Part shown: positions 19,081 to 61,410 of the stretch, one piece after another
Numbering within the stretch: position 1 is the stretch's first letter
How the letters are laid out: every line of letters starts with the position of its first letter
Source: Eledone cirrhosa
Taxonomy: Eukaryota
Direction of reading: 5' to 3'
DNA length: 64,000 nt
NCBI GenBank assembly: GCA_964016885.1
Contig: OZ024745.1
Location: 45,198,001-45,262,000, forward strand
Made by a program: the position numbers and the translations under genes
Notes under the pieces: model-generated
Told to the model about the DNA's origin: nothing
What the model saw: the letters and a program-made list of their open reading frames with translations, nothing else
The model's database searches: none

Positions 19081-19260
19081 GCAGAGGTTATATTTAATTT
19101 GTTGGGAATCAACAAGCTTAAAAATTTATTTATAAAACTAATTCTGTATTATATTTTATCTGATGAAAGCGCACCATAATTTGCCTTGGTGGCCCTTGAA
19201 ATATGTATAATAAAATAATTATGGTTTTATAAATATAGTTTCCATTTGTTAATATATTGT
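19081..19260. mobile_element. Family D bipartite insertion with non-overlapping inverted parts
   Basis: 19081-19130 is the family 3' end on the minus strand. 19131-19260 is the upstream part on the plus strand, ending ccatttgttaatatattg. (TA)n on both sides. Confidence 0.75.
19154..19215 (+). ncRNA. Minimal type-I hammerhead ribozyme
   Basis: ttttat CTGATGA aagcgcacca..tggtggccctt GAAA t atgt a TA ataaaa. Confidence 0.8.
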
Positions 19261-19763
19261 ATATATATATATATATATTTCTAGTTATTATAAAATGCTC
19301 GGACCTACTCGTTAGAATCTTAGAGCTTATTTTGCGGGTGATATAGCGCATGTCTTTCTGGCATGACACCCATAATTTTGATTTAGATTAAATTCATTTG
19401 ATTTATCTTAATTTTGTATATATATATATATATATATATATATATATATATATATACACACATGGGCCTTGTTTTCCTTAAAATTGTGAGGGTGACAAAC
19501 CAACATTTGTTGATTCTTAAAGGAGCATAAATTGCTTATGGTGCCTTTCTCGAGCCCTGTCACATAAGTAAAATGTTACGCTAATTAAATTTTATGTATT
19601 CACATGAAGTTCAAATATAAAAGAATAAGCTTCAAAAGAATTTATTAAATTAAATAAACAAAAAGTGGGGGTAATTGTCCCCTGGTACCCCGCTGAAACA
19701 ATATAATTATTGAGTAAAATGACAGGAGGCCGGACTGGTGAAATTCCTTCAAAGATTTATAAT

Positions 19764-19941
19764 AATTGTCTCTACTTTAGGCACAAGGCCAGCAATTACC
19801 CAGTGCATTACTGGTACTTTATTTTATCGACCCCGTAATGATGAAAGGCAAAGTCAACCTCGGCGGGATTTGAACTCAGATCGTAAAGGAACGTAACTAT
19901 ACTGGAAAGCATGGCGTCCGACCCTCTACCGATACTGCCAA
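19764..19941 (-). mobile_element. SINE-A at the centre of an inverted repeat with arms of about 55 bp (19703-19758 / 19942-19997)
   Basis: Flanks attattgagtaaaatgacagg..ccttcaaagattt and aaatctttgaagg..cattttactcaataat are reverse complements. Confidence 0.85.
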
Positions 19942-20189
19942 AAATCTTTGAAGGAATTTCACCATCCGGCCCCCTGTCATTTTACTCAATAATAATTAAC
20001 TTCTTGCACCACCAACAAGATTCAATATCGAAGATGGATGAGTTGCATAACGTCGAGTGCTTTTCCTAATATTTCATCATGATTGACTATACAGAATGAC
20101 CAGTTATATCCGATGGTGAACCACCAAACCTAAATGAATATATACATATATATATATATAAATGTAATCTGAGTTTTTCGAATATTAAT

Positions 20190-20378
20190 AATTGTTTCTA
20201 CTTTTGGCACAAGGCCAGCAATTGCCGAATAGATTACTGGTACTTTATTTTATCGACCCCGTAAGGATGAAAGGCAAAGTTAACCTCGGTGGGATTTGAA
20301 CTCAGAATGGCAAGGGCCGTAACTCTATGCGTCAAAGCATGGCGTCCGACCCTCTACCGATACTGCCAATTCACCGCC
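20190..20378 (-). mobile_element. SINE-A (variant subfamily), full length, 10-bp TSD
   Basis: tattaataat at 20183-20192 and 20380-20389. Confidence 0.9.
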
Positions 20379-20494
20379 CTATTAATAATAACATTCGATT
20401 CGTTTGCAATTTTGCAAACAAACCTCAATTTTATAGCCATGTCAGTAGAATGAACACTTCATTCTTGCCCTTGTGTTGGCATGCGAACAGAACT

Positions 20495-20532
20495 GCAGAC
20501 ACTAATGTTTCTGAGTATCACCCCTCATCAGT
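20495..20532 (-). ncRNA. Hammerhead core with weak stem I
   Basis: Minus strand CTGATGA ggggtgatactca GAAA cattagt GTC. Near-palindromic stem III and GUC triplet; stem I only about 2 bp. Confidence 0.5.
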
Positions 20533-20568
20533 AGGCTTGTTTGCAAAATTGTAAACGAATCGAATGTT

Positions 20569-20752
20569 GGTGGATTGGCAGTATCGGTAGAGGGTCGGAC
20601 GCCATGCTTTCCAGTATAGTTACGTCCCTTTATGATCTGAGTTCAAATCCTGCCGAGGTTGACTTTGTCTTTCATCATTACGGGGTCGATAAAATAAAGT
20701 ACCAGTAATGCACTGGGTAATTGCTGGCCTTGTGCCTAAAGTAGAAACAATT
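20569..20752 (+). mobile_element. SINE-A (main subfamily)
   Basis: Matches the 18088 copy. Confidence 0.9.
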
Positions 20753-57675: not shown

Positions 57676-57732
57676 CTGTTATACGTATTTTGATGTTTAT
57701 TGATATGAAACAGTTACGACCTCATCAGGCAG
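57676..57732 (-). ncRNA. Decayed hammerhead
   Basis: ctgc CTGATGA .. cAAAA t acgt a TA acag. GAAA appears mutated to AAAA; palindromic ACGT loop. Confidence 0.45.
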
Positions 57733-58119
57733 TTATTACGTAAACAGAAAGTTACATGAATAAACATTACATGAATATAATGACACGAACAAAAATAAAA
57801 ATAAAATTATTCATGCAGTTTCGATTCAATGATATGCCATGGGAGGGTTATTGGTGTTATTCCTCCAAAGTTCTGCTGACATCTGAATTAGTACAAACAA
57901 CCCCACAGCATCATCACTACGAGCGTAAACGACACCTAGCTATTGGTGGAAGTTAGTTTCCAATTCTAAACCATTCTAGTTTTCCCGAATCTCTTAGTAG
58001 CGCCAAGGTCTGAGATCATCTACTCACTTTCGTATCAGGTCATTTGTAAATTCGTACATACTTAGCCACATTGAAAGATATCTATTACGATATATATATA
58101 TATATATATATATATATAT

Positions 58120-58258
58120 AGTAATAATAATAAATTTGAGGGCTCGATAAGGATAAATATATATCAAATATATAAGAACCCTAGAGCAAATATTTATTAA
58201 AATAACAGATTAAAGTTTAAGCAAATAATCGCTGCTTTCACCCTTAACGGGATCTTCT
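58120..58258 (-). mobile_element. PLE-B terminal repeat fragment between (TA)n tracts
   Basis: Overlaps 61342-61410 and extends to the terminus seen at 34990-35083. Confidence 0.8.
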
Positions 58259-58950
58259 TATATATATATATATATATATATATATATATATTATATATAT
58301 ATATATATTATATATATATATAGATATATATATATATATATATATATATATATATATATATATATATATATATATATATATATATATATATATATATATA
58401 TATATATATATATATATATATATATATATATATATATATATATATATATATATATATATATAATATATATATATATATATAATATATATATATATATATA
58501 TAATATATATAATATATATATATATATATATATATATAATATATATATATAATATATATATATATAATATATATATAATATATATATATATATAATATAT
58601 ATATATATAATATATATATATATATATATATATAATATATATATATATATATATATATATATATATATATATATATATATATATATATATATATATATAT
58701 ATATATATATATATATATATATATATATATATATATATATATATATATATATATATATATATATATATATATATATATATATATATATATATATATATAT
58801 ATATATATATATATATATATATATATATATATATATATATATATATATATATATATATATATATATATATATATATATATATATATATATATATATATAT
58901 ATATATAATATATATATTATATATATATATATATATTATATATATATATA
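58259..58950. repeat. (TA)n tract of about 690 bp
   Basis: Direct reading. Other long (TA)n tracts include 35085-35364. Confidence 0.95.
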
Positions 58951-59104
58951 AAATCAATTTAAACGTTTAAATGTTCATACACCCACATTGAAAGGCAGCG
59001 AATTGGCAGAGTCGTTAGAGCGTCTGATAGAATGCTTTGTGCTATTCATTTCGGCTATCTGCTCTCCGAGTTCAAATGCCTTTCATTATTTCGAGGTCGA
59101 TAAA

Positions 59105-59345
59105 AATATTACCAGTCTAATACGAAGGTCCTCCACTCTTGTCTGTCCTGGGCCAGCTTCTGGATTCTACCCCATTTGTGTTGTCAGGTCTTCGTCTCTC
59201 TCTCAGTTGTTCTGCGCCAGGTGTTCTTTGGCCTTCTTCGTTTTTGCTTCCAGTGAAGGGTTGTTCGTGGGATGCTATCTTGCTCTCTTCTGAGAACATG
59301 CCTTATCCACTTCCATCTTCTTCTGAGAAGGATTGCTGACATATT
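59105..59345 (-). pseudogene. RTE C-terminal fragment
   Basis: RRRWKWIRHVLRRE..TLHW..RRRPKNTWRRT. Confidence 0.7.
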
Positions 59346-59637
59346 TTCTTGTTGGCATATACCTATGAATTCCCCATTGGAGATCTTTTTTATGTATGTG
59401 TGTGAATAGGAATACATCTCTCTCCGTCTCTCCCCAAATCGCTTTCTCTTTTTTCGATATACATATATGTATATAATGTATATATAAATACACACACACA
59501 TATATATATATATATGGAATTAGTCTGCCTATAGGCCCACAGAATTGTTCATTTAAATAGTCTGTTTCTGGTCTTTAAGTTTGAATGTCTTTGTGTATAT
59601 GTATATATTGTGTCTTTGTATATATATATATATATAT

Positions 59638-61410
59638 AGTAATAATAATAAATTTGAAGACTAAAATCCAAAGAGGGCTCGATAAGGCTAAATATATATC
59701 CCGTCGCATTTGTTGGTATAACCCACCATATAATATGGAGGTGGCCACACCATTAGCTAAGATCTTTCTTTCCCTTATTACGAAGCATTTTCCCCCTACA
59801 CATAAATATAGTAAAATTTTTAATAGAAATACTATTACAATTTCTTACTCTACGACTCCTAACCTTGCACATAACATCACAGCTTCAAATTTAGCTAAAC
59901 TACCTAGCCGTAGGAACACGTGCAACCCTGTAGTTAGAACTAACTGTAATTGTAGGAATCAGGTTGATTGCCCCCTATCCGGGAAATGCCTCTAAAGCAA
60001 CATTATCTACAAATGTAAGGTTGAAACACCCACGTCCCGTAGGGCCTACATAGGGTTAACCGCCAATAGATTCAAGCAGCGTCTTTACATGCATACCCAT
60101 TCTTTTCGTTACCCTCTTAGAAGGAATATGACGTCACTTTCAGCTTATATCTGAAGTCTAAAAGACAAACACACCCAATATAAGTTACACTGGGAGATCC
60201 TAGCTAGGGCTAGATCGTATAACGGAAATAAAAGACCATGTGACCTCTGCGCCGCTGAGGCCCTGGAAATACTCTACGCCACAGACCACATCTTAAACAA
60301 AGAATCTGAGGAAATTTCTGCTTGTAAACATAAATTGCACAAAAACTTTCCTGTATTACAGCTCCCCGTTATACCCTAACGGATAGTACGATCTATACGT
60401 GGATATTTTACGTCTTGATGTGGTAGCTAAGTATATGTTTTTGTTTATACCATTACTTATTTGCATAGGTAAGTATTTATTACCTGTATGTTTTGTAAAG
60501 GTACGTATACCTTCTCGTACGTATATTTGATTGTATATGTTATGGCGTATAATTTTATATTTCTGGTACATATGGTTTGGTTATGTGTATACGGGAGTTT
60601 TTGCGTCTGTGTGAGTATGCAGGTTTCGTACGTATGTAGGGTGTGTGTATATGTGTACTTCATGTTTTGGTTGACTTACGTCTCCGAACATTTGTGTATT
60701 TACATGTAGGTATGTGTGTGCGCTTGTTATATACGTATTTATTTATTTATATACGTTTATTTAATTATTTTATTTATTTGTATACACGCATACACACACA
60801 CATATTTATATGTGCGTGGGTTTTGTATACCTATGGTAAGTGTTTTTCGCGTATGCTTGTGTATGTACGTATTTGTATGTGTGTATGTATTTATTTAATT
60901 TCTATTACCTCTGTATTGTATTTATTTACTTTGTTCTTAACTCTGAAGCGGCGATTCATTCGGTCTCCTAGTTAGAATTTTAGTCTACGACTTCAGCTAT
61001 ACCATTTTACGTGGTTTTTGTCTTTTGCGTGCAATTGTTCTCCACGCTCCACATATGATGTATTAACTTTCGTTTTTTTTCGTTCATTGCCAGAGAACGT
61101 CTCTATGAACCACCTAAGGGAACATTAGTCTACGACCTCTTTTATACCATAAACGTGGTTTCTGTCTTTGCGCGTAATTGTTTTTTCACCGCTCCTATTA
61201 TGACGTATTATATTCATTTTTTCCCGTTCTTTGCCAGGGAACGTTTCCACGAACCAAAGTATCGTCTTCCTGTCTTCCTCCGGTTGCAACGTTTTTTTGA
61301 AATATCCACTTCTGCGTTTACAGATTGACTTTGTTAGTTTCAGAAGATCCCGTTAAGGGTGAAAAGCAGCGATTCTTTGCTTAAACTTTAATCTGTTATT
61401 TTAATAAATA
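59638..61410 (+). mobile_element. Penelope-like element B (probably Naiad-like), 5'-truncated, with an inverted 3' tip at 59638-59700
   Basis: WYNPPY..KHFP..KIFNRNT..CNC..CPLSGKCL, IIYKC..AYIGLT..FKQR, CDLC..E..LNKESE..CKH. Stops TAA 59993 and TGA 60152. Duplication of about 140 bp in the 3' region (60980 / 61125). Confidence 0.88.
61336..61387 (+). ncRNA. Hammerhead-like fold with CAGAAGA core variant
   Basis: agttt CAGAAGA tcccgttaagggt GAAA agca..tgct t aaact. Confidence 0.55.

What the first reader, a model, noticed from the sequence alone, without database searches (positions are those of the whole stretch)
19081..61410. Recurrent asymmetric architecture: true 3' end on one strand, family-specific internal ATAT stop on the other
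Seen: in these insertions both ends face outward like 3' ends. One arm reaches the family terminus; the opposite-strand arm ends at a reused internal site next to (TA)n. PLE-A ends ..gtataacaatat at both 22838 and 39052. Family C ends ..ttttccta at 28595, 34215 and 55080. Family D ends a few nt after ..ccattt(g/a)ttaatat at 2003, 4100, 19260 and 33736. PLE-B ends ..ttaataaatat at 61410. Some halves do not overlap (19081-19260, 28595-28738); others overlap to form palindromes. Inference: both strands of a cut (TA)n target prime reverse transcription, one at the RNA 3' end and one by annealing to an internal AU site (twin priming as known for L1). Overlapping cases would need two RNAs or a tandem-pLTR RNA. 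This offers a testable explanation for the inverted pLTRs of Penelope elements.
Basis: partly seen in the sequence, partly recalled or inferred. Interest (0 to 1): 0.75.

Follow-up and report, generated by a model that had tools for sequence, protein, structure and literature searches.

The report
Twin-primed Penelope insertions, two fixed starts
These lopsided mirror-image insertions in TA repeats are copies of Penelope-like jumping genes in an already described layout, but nearly every one pairs a "long" end with a "short" end and both halves come from the same source variant, which suggests that both cut DNA ends likely start copying one RNA at two fixed internal points.

Summary
Seven families in the window (a Neptune-like PLE-A, a Hydra-type PLE-B and five short non-coding ones) have two outward-facing arms between (TA)n tracts, each ending at one of two fixed sites.

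For PLE-A, 13,874 copies stop at the inner site and 11,658 at the outer one. A better ATATATA match 160 nt upstream is used by only 17, against 4,851 that pass it. Of 67 assignable two-armed copies picked by their short end, 66 pair it with a long end.

The stretch between them is the published PLE "tail". Most arms overlap, unlike L1 twin priming. In 35 of 59 the short arm reaches further 5', which excludes simple fold-back. The partner arm is the nearest relative in 18 of 28 (0.6 expected).

The layout and two internal start sites are published. I did not find the one-of-each pairing or same-source arms in print. This scan noted the same layout before on other DNA.

The parts
20912..22050 (-). 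PLE-A insertion 1, long arm: GIY-YIG end of ORF, 3' UTR, hammerhead motif, ORF start, 60-nt tail, ending at the outer AATAT site
   Evidence: Pfam GIY-YIG E=1.4e-4
22050..22838 (+). PLE-A insertion 1, short arm ending at the inner AATAT site; 6 differences in 599 nt from its partner
22640..22685 (+). Minimal hammerhead-like motif in the PLE-A pLTR (CUGAAGA, stem II, GAAA, stem I GUCA/UGAC)
   Evidence: sequence; fold (z -0.84, stems as expected); not among the 150 Rfam rows shown
37042..37068 (-). PLE-A insertion 2, long arm of 27 nt (tail end only), joined through a 6-nt overlap
37063..39052 (+). PLE-A insertion 2, short arm: pLTR fragment, then RT, GIY-YIG and 3' UTR to the inner site
   Evidence: RVT_1 E=2.3e-4, below its cutoff; GIY-YIG E=4.9e-5
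59639..59700 (-). PLE-B long arm (tail only, no overlap with partner)
59700..61410 (+). PLE-B short arm: Hydra-type linker and endonuclease remnant, 3' UTR, hammerhead-like motif, inner site
58121..58258 (-). One-armed PLE-B end holding both the inner and the outer site
34990..35083 (+). One-armed PLE-B tail ending at the outer site
28598..28737 (.). Family C insertion: short arm on minus (28598-28655), long arm on plus (28663-28737), non-overlapping
34150..34215 (.). Family C insertion: long arm on minus, short arm of about 9 nt on plus
54892..55080 (.). Family C palindrome with one-sided tail (long arm minus, short arm plus)
1474..2005 (.). Family D insertion (long arm minus, interrupted by a SINE-like piece at 1665-1786; short arm plus)
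4101..4396 (.). Family D insertion (short arm minus, long arm plus)
19081..19260 (.). Family D insertion, non-overlapping (tail on minus 19081-19129; hammerhead-like core and inner site on plus)
33737..34136 (.). Family D palindrome with tail (short arm minus, long arm plus)
3399..3799 (.).
62902..63460 (.).
41506..41923 (.).

Best explanation
These are insertions of endonuclease-bearing Penelope-like retrotransposons and short non-coding relatives whose two arms end at two fixed sites of the element, likely because both cut ends of a (TA)n target prime reverse transcription on one RNA, one at each site. SHOWN: two fixed ends, 60 nt apart in A, 80-100 nt in B-F and about 310 nt in G; both are internal in A and B; both carry only 2-5 nt of A/T match to (TA)n; an insertion almost always uses one of each; arms overlap freely and mostly share one source haplotype. 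INFERRED: (1) the GIY-YIG domain cuts both strands of (TA)n; (2) a protein dimer holds the RNA so that one DNA 3' end sits on the outer site and the other on the inner site, with the tail between them; (3) both reverse transcriptases run towards the RNA 5' end, the trailing one displacing the other's cDNA, and stop independently; (4) the two cDNA ends are joined head to head by end joining with 0-3 nt microhomology or filler. Site choice would come from protein or RNA structure, not from AU content.
For: Pairing:
- Of 92 distinct short-end anchors, 66 have a long-end partner (57 automatic, 3 over-chained cases and 6 tiny arms re-read by eye), 1 has a short partner, 3 are unresolved, 1 duplicates another locus, and 21 are one-armed or have a broken partner. 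Binomial p about 1e-18 for 1 of 67.
- Of the first 30 long-end anchors, 18 have a short partner and 0 a long one (these partly overlap the first set).
- The mixed pairing also holds in B-G in 664 kb, with no clean same-type pair.

Site specificity: 17 copies stop at, and 4,851 pass, an internal ATATATA, against about half at the inner site and 96% at the outer site.

Internal sites: read-through in A and B.

Independent stops: short arm further 5' in 35, long arm in 20, equal in 4 of 59; median arm lengths 235 and 251 nt.

Joints: of 49 resolved, 25 have filler; of the 24 without, 20 have 1 nt or more and 9 have 3 nt or more of microhomology, against 44% and 5.6% in shuffled joins.

Same source:
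- The partner arm is the closest arm in 18 of 28 (0.6 expected) and in the top 3 in 21.
- 81 discordant of 1,708 polymorphic comparisons, against 444 expected.
- Fine haplotypes match over long overlaps.
- A tail allele predicts alleles in the part that only the short arm holds, where conversion cannot act: 16 of 18 (p=0.0015) and 12 of 13 (p=0.005).
- 38 single-arm private ORF changes with a neutral pattern (28 non-synonymous or stop, 10 synonymous) remain unhomogenised.

In vitro precedent: a Poseidon protein cuts and extends both strands, starts at two internal sites that bound the tail, and is predicted to be a dimer (PMC11167929).
Against: - Genomes cannot tell one RNA molecule from two transcripts of one locus, or from two units of one tandem or circular RNA.
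- 7 of 28 partners rank below 3rd (25 of 59, 25 of 78, 15 of 79 and others), so some insertions may use two templates.
- The conversion-proof test shows the same subfamily only; five further linked sites gave 11 of 16 or 10 of 15 (p about 0.09-0.10) and one gave 10 of 13 (p=0.07).
- Long arms do not pile up at the inner site, where a bound primer might block them.
- Two long-long insertions and one short-short insertion exist.
- About a fifth of anchors are one-armed.
- The family C arm test is weak: no other arm as close as the partner in only 4 of 17, and 3 or fewer in 9 of 17.
- In vitro, start sites did not differ between strands and were not homologous to the cut DNA.
- No empty site was seen.
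Confidence: 0.58

Rival explanations
1. Twin priming at the same two fixed sites but on two templates: two transcripts of the one locus active in that cell, or two units of a tandem or circular RNA, held by an asymmetric dimer (like the 'dual priming' proposed for L1).
For: It explains overlaps up to about 1.9 kb (L169) without strand displacement, and the lack of a pile-up at the inner site. It fits the 7 of 28 poorer partner matches. Tandem templates exist (459 read-through matches), and circular PLE RNA has been proposed (PMC4209133). Dual priming is defined in PMC2837659.
Against: Each template carries both sites, so 66 of 67 mixed pairs needs an extra asymmetry rule. Fine haplotype identity (0-2 of 41-44 sites in seven long overlaps) needs one locus to dominate each time, among what may be hundreds of read-through loci.
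Confidence: 0.27
2. Fold-back: one cDNA primed at the outer site folds on itself, is copied back, and is cut by the endonuclease or joined at the inner site (the self-priming and EN-resolution ideas in the literature).
For: It gives identical arms and one-sided tails directly. Palindromes at the joint were read as self-priming (PMC3846280) and the tail as EN-mediated resolution (PMC8557442). 24 of 59 PLE-A insertions and many family C hairpins fit this geometry.
Against: A fold-back copy cannot reach further 5' than the arm it copies. It does in 35 of 59, and 8 of 65 do not overlap at all. It could hold for a subset only.
Confidence: 0.07
3. The second arm is copied at DNA level from the first arm during repair (strand invasion at the inner ATAT), and the first arm is later trimmed.
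For: It would give the same haplotype and a strict long-then-short order.
Against: It needs heavy trimming of the first arm in most cases (35 of 59). It does not explain why a better ATATATA is ignored.
Confidence: 0.05
4. One reading: L1-type twin priming, one primer at the true RNA 3' end and one at a chance internal AU site; or later deletion into the microsatellite.
For: Non-overlapping cases (8 of 65 plus 6 tiny arms; window 19081, 28595, 37042, 59639) look exactly like it. For family D no common read-through was found (59 matches), so there the outer site may be a real RNA end. C, E, F and G were not searched for read-through.
Against: Read-through in A and B. Fixed rather than chance inner site. 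Overlap is the rule.
Confidence: 0.03

Closest known systems
Insertion unit of EN+ Penelope-like elements: pLTR, adjacent inverted 5'-truncated copy, 30-40 bp tail often at one end only (PMC8557442 Fig. 2 legend and text; PMC3846280)
   Same: Head-to-head inverted copy, one-sided tail, 5' truncation, partial tandems, (TA)n targeting, hammerhead in the pLTR, ORF start inside the pLTR with the tail extending it.
   Different: Tails here are 60, 80-100 and about 310 nt. The passages read say 'often' or 'optionally'; here the pairing is measured at 66 of 67. Those papers explain the layout by EN-mediated resolution or self-priming, which the arm geometry here excludes as the general route.
Poseidon of Anolis in vitro (Frangieh et al. 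2024, PMC11167929)
   Same: Both strands are cut and extended; RT starts internally at two sites that bound the tail; the sites lie just inside the ORF; predicted dimer; AT-rich targets.
   Different: There the start sites are AC-rich, not homologous to the cut DNA, and do not differ between strands in bulk. Here both sites carry a short A/T match to (TA)n and each insertion uses one of each. The parts read do not derive the inverted layout from the two sites.
L1 twin priming and dual priming (as described in PMC2837659)
   Same: Two target 3' ends prime two cDNAs joined in inverted orientation, with short microhomology at the inner joint.
   Different: L1 primes at the poly(A) end plus a variable internal site and gives an internal deletion. 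Here both sites are internal (A, B) and fixed, and the arms mostly overlap by tens to about 1,900 nt.
Non-LTR retrozymes as non-autonomous PLE derivatives (bioRxiv 10.64898/2026.07.22.740005)
   Same: Short non-coding elements with type I hammerhead-like motifs that would depend on a PLE protein (families D, E, F; C weakly).
   Different: Retrozymes are defined as tandem arrays. These are dispersed head-to-head palindromes with a tail. The preprint has no occurrence of 'tail', 'palindrom' or 'priming'.

Membership tests
C-terminal EN+ PLE, Neptune type (PLE-A) | Single ORF with RT followed by C-terminal GIY-YIG endonuclease | tested here: met
   GIY-YIG at or above cutoff and weak RVT_1 below cutoff; near-full ORF read in L169
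C-terminal EN+ PLE, Neptune type (PLE-A) | CX2-5CxxC linker before the GIY-YIG, CCHH in the EN, DKG-type RT motif | tested here: met
   C-X4-C-X2-C linker, two Cys and two His in the EN, and DKSG read by eye; motif definitions
C-terminal EN+ PLE, Neptune type (PLE-A) | Placement in the Neptune group by RT phylogeny | not tested
   No tree built and no reference PLE proteins at hand; Nematis not excluded by phylogeny
Hydra clade PLE (PLE-B) | CxCX5C linker, DKT, no CCHH, CxxC and CxH near the EN end, (TA)n insertion | tested here: met
   Read by eye against the definition. The RWK motif appears only as W-R. No Pfam RT or GIY-YIG hit on four B fragments
EN+ PLE insertion unit | Inverted 5'-truncated copy and one-sided tail | tested here: met
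EN+ PLE insertion unit | Hammerhead motif in the pLTR | tested here: inconclusive
   Core words and stems are seen for A, D and F and are degenerate in B. In C the core is intact in only 3 exact genome matches, with no clean stem II. No hammerhead among the 150 of 292 Rfam rows shown. Cleavage not testable here
EN+ PLE insertion unit | Target-site duplication | tested here: inconclusive
   Hidden by (TA)n on both sides in 62 of 65. Shared flank markers in 10 of 65, against a control mean of 5.1 and maximum of 8. One clear-looking case, L271
L1-type twin priming | One primer at the RNA 3' end | tested here: not met
   Read-through past the outer end in A and B; not shown either way for C-G
L1-type twin priming | Variable internal priming site chosen by chance complementarity | tested here: not met
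L1-type twin priming | Arms do not overlap (internal deletion) | tested here: not met
   8 of 65 non-overlapping, plus 6 tiny arms
L1-type twin priming | Two target-primed cDNAs joined inverted with short microhomology | tested here: met
   Arm polarity and joint statistics. This supports 'works like', not membership
Non-LTR retrozyme (families C-G) | Tandem units each with an intact type I hammerhead; circular RNA | tested here: not met
   Copies in 664 kb are dispersed inverted pairs. The only D tandem seen holds the tail without the ribozyme. RNA not testable

The most novel reading that the evidence does not exclude
The normal Penelope-type integration reaction is a programmed double priming: a dimer clamps one RNA at two set sites, the tail is the RNA loop between two active sites, and the same molecule is reverse-transcribed twice from both ends of the cut. 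That one step would explain the inverted pLTR, the one-sided tail and the palindromes across Neptune-like, Hydra and non-coding families.
Probability: 0.45. Interest if true: 0.75.

Novelty: new variant of a known kind. Interest (0 to 1): 0.55.

Why it matters
How Penelope-like elements make their inverted repeats and tails is named as open in PMC8557442. The 2024 in vitro paper leaves the later steps unvalidated. The counts here turn that into sharp predictions for an assay that already exists: one site per strand, one template per event, and site choice independent of AU content. They also rule out fold-back and later deletion as the general route. With over ten thousand copies of one family, the process is a large source of palindromes beside (TA)n tracts in this genome. 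The layout itself is not new.

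Tried and rejected
- DNA search of the own genome with the PLE-A end found nothing because common words are skipped; patterns were used instead.
- The Rfam scan was swamped by microsatellite and miRNA chance hits; only 150 of 292 rows were shown.
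- Empty-site search: contigs laid on 27400-29600 broke at the repeats and bridged nothing, so there is no verdict. No RNA holder was listed.
- TSD search was inconclusive.
- Read-through of family D: one pattern, 59 matches, no shared continuation. C, E, F and G were not searched for read-through.
- One search was flooded for family C because the reference held a TA run, and was repeated. One D 'pair' at 111153 was AT noise and was dropped.
- Searches contained duplicate insertions; the counts reported come from the de-duplicated.
- In one search, 10 of 59 joints could not be resolved and were left out. In one search, only 28 of 66 insertions had 120 or more shared positions and enough comparators.
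- The second batch of long-end loci (L231-L250) was picked by me for lacking a listed short partner, three of them because they looked long-long. It is biased and was not used for rates; 2 of those 3 were real long-long insertions.
- Gene conversion as the cause of arm identity was not supported: distance does not fall with shorter spacer (rho -0.42, p=0.025, the opposite direction) and single-arm changes persist. It is not excluded for individual cases.
- Pyatkov 2004 is not held. The text supplements of PMC11167929 gave no hits.

Full report
1. Observation. Each insertion reads: (TA)n, an arm on the minus strand, a joint, an arm on the plus strand, (TA)n, so both outer ends face outward. Three more families in the window (E, F, G) have the same layout. 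In 664 kb of contiguous sequence around the window, TA-flanked outer ends form two peaks in every family. The distance between the peaks is 60 nt in PLE-A, 80-99 nt in B-F and about 310 nt in G. Raw reads of three other samples of one study show the PLE-A inner end followed by (TA)n in 2,179-2,484 reads each, plus strand-switch joints.

2. What the elements are. PLE-A has RT followed by GIY-YIG, a C-X4-C-X2-C linker and a minimal hammerhead-like motif. It is Neptune-like by the motifs in PMC8557442; no tree was built. PLE-B shows the Hydra marks CxCX5C and DKT and lacks CCHH, but has no Pfam RT or EN hit. Families C-G are short with no long ORF. D, E and F carry hammerhead core words, C does so only rarely, and G was not examined for one. 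I infer that they are moved by PLE proteins.

3. The 'true 3' end' is internal. A tandem copy of PLE-A reads through the outer end into an open frame that starts about 25 nt before the inner site. Both ends are AATAT followed by C, at about codons 9 and 29. Genome-wide, 459 exact matches read through (about a dozen are one 46-nt array) against 11,658 that stop at (TA)n. PLE-B also reads through, with one fixed continuation in 12 of 13 distinct loci inspected, and an ATG follows about 45 nt later. For D no shared continuation was found. The stretch between the two ends is therefore the PLE 'tail'.

4. The sites are chosen, not chanced. At the inner site 13,874 copies stop and 12,822 pass. At an ATATATA about 160 nt upstream, a longer match to the target, 17 stop and 4,851 pass. 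This refutes deletion into the microsatellite and chance annealing, both of which should favour the better match.

5. One of each. Of 92 distinct loci taken by their short end from the first 100 listed on contig C1, 66 have a long-end partner on the other strand and 1 a short-end partner. Three are unresolved, 1 repeats another locus, and 21 are one-armed or broken (nine of the 66 were re-read by eye). Of the first 30 long-end loci, 18 have a short partner, none a long one, 6 are unresolved and 6 are other. Two long-long insertions were found by picking them on purpose from 100 listed long ends. Free choice of site would give half same-type pairs.

6. Two independent copies, not a fold-back. 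Among 59 simple two-armed insertions the short arm reaches further 5' in 35, the long arm in 20, and they are equal in 4. Lengths are barely correlated and similarly distributed. A fold-back product cannot outrun its template. In 8 of 65 the long arm stays within the tail, as in L1 twin priming; the rest overlap, by up to about 1.9 kb. Of 49 resolved joints, 25 have filler; the other 24 are enriched for 1-3 nt microhomology. Long arms do not pile up at the inner site.

7. Same source. The partner is the nearest arm in 18 of 28 testable insertions (0.6 expected). Mean distance is 0.020 against 0.065 to the median other arm, and family polymorphisms disagree in 81 of 1,708 comparisons against 444 expected. 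Several mosaic haplotypes are visible and long overlaps match almost site for site. Later conversion is an unlikely main cause: distance does not fall with shorter spacer, 38 neutral-looking single-arm changes persist against 15 shared private ones, and a tail allele predicts two sites in the short-arm-only region (16 of 18; 12 of 13). Against this, six other linked sites were not significant, that test resolves subfamily only, and 7 of 28 partners rank below third. Family C is only weakly informative.

8. Mechanism. Best supported (0.58): both ends of a cut (TA)n prime on one RNA at two protein- or structure-defined sites, both RTs run 5'-ward and stop independently, and the cDNAs are end-joined. 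The cut, the dimer, the strand displacement and the joining are inferred. That PLE RTs lack RNase H, so the RNA would survive a first pass, is recalled; no RNase H Pfam hit was seen on the L169 frames. The main rival (0.27) is two templates from one locus or from one tandem or circular RNA. Twin priming in either form carries about 0.85.

9. What is known, and what I saw of each paper.
PMC11167929: abstract, whole main text and start of methods (parts 1-2 of 4); text supplements searched without hits and Fig. S2 not seen. It shows both strands cut and extended and two internal start sites bounding the tail, with no strand difference and no homology to the target.
PMC8557442: passages and section 11. 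It describes the inverted truncated copy and a 30-40 bp tail often at one end, ascribes the tail to EN-mediated resolution, and calls the inverted structures unexplained.
PMC3846280: passages; self-priming model.
PMC4209133: passages.
PMC2837659: passages; L1 twin and dual priming.
bioRxiv 10.64898/2026.07.22.740005: part 1 of 5 and a term search.
Six library searches showed no paper that applies twin priming to PLEs or counts the pairing; I saw most hits only as listings. [quoted passage not shown]

10. Earlier notes of this scan. Three describe twin-primed Penelope insertions on other DNA, and a fourth reads a similar palindrome as a folded-back end. None lie near this window. I had written my reading before seeing them and do not count them as support.

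11. Verdict. The feature is real and strong. The layout and the two internal start sites are known. The near-obligate pairing, same-source arms, independence from AU content and longer tails across two clades and non-coding families are additions that make the open mechanism testable. New variant of a known kind; interest 0.55.

Noticed in passing
flanks of 65 PLE-A insertions; L271: TA runs touching the elements are longer than TA runs in general (median 27 against 17 nt). In L271 a duplicated interruption has more TA on the element side in both flanks. This could be target preference, slippage, or telomerase-like repeat addition before copying starts.
   Followed up: partly
L014 and L169, PLE-A ORF N-terminal third: Asparagine-rich low-complexity insert in the ORF, like those reported in rotifer Penelope elements.
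   Followed up: no
window 20791-20860: Perfect 70-nt palindrome of apparently host DNA centred on a 30-nt TA run, next to PLE-A insertion 1. Similar cases lie beside the family C copy at about +113,400 and beside L157.
   Followed up: no
G000:C1:132947044-132947576: Array of about 12 units of 46 nt made from the PLE-A outer site and its read-through.
   Followed up: no
L294 (G000:C27:11559500-11564500): Five tandem copies of the family D tail alone, each with its (TA)n and (CA)n flank.
   Followed up: partly
window 45792-47763, 61677-62901, 11930-13020, 52413-53287: Repeat families inserted in (ATGT)n as partial tandems. The frame at 53014-53547 (minus) looks like the C-terminal restriction-like endonuclease of a non-LTR element (recalled resemblance; no relevant Pfam hit).
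   Followed up: no
window 18090-18272, 19758-19941, 20186-20369, 20575-20760, 27134-27319, 28212-28393, 36622-36806, 51363-51542, 53998-54334: A very abundant SINE-like family of about 185 nt; two copies form an inverted pair at 20158-20778.
   Followed up: no
PLE-A inner joints: Inner ends cluster near -250 to -270 (5' of the hammerhead motif) and near -80 to -120 (an AT-rich palindrome) relative to the inner site.
   Followed up: partly
family C copies in 664 kb: Both arms usually stop within about 20 nt of the same 5' limit, at or just after the hammerhead core, which suggests a short RNA of about 150 nt copied to its end from both sides.
   Followed up: partly
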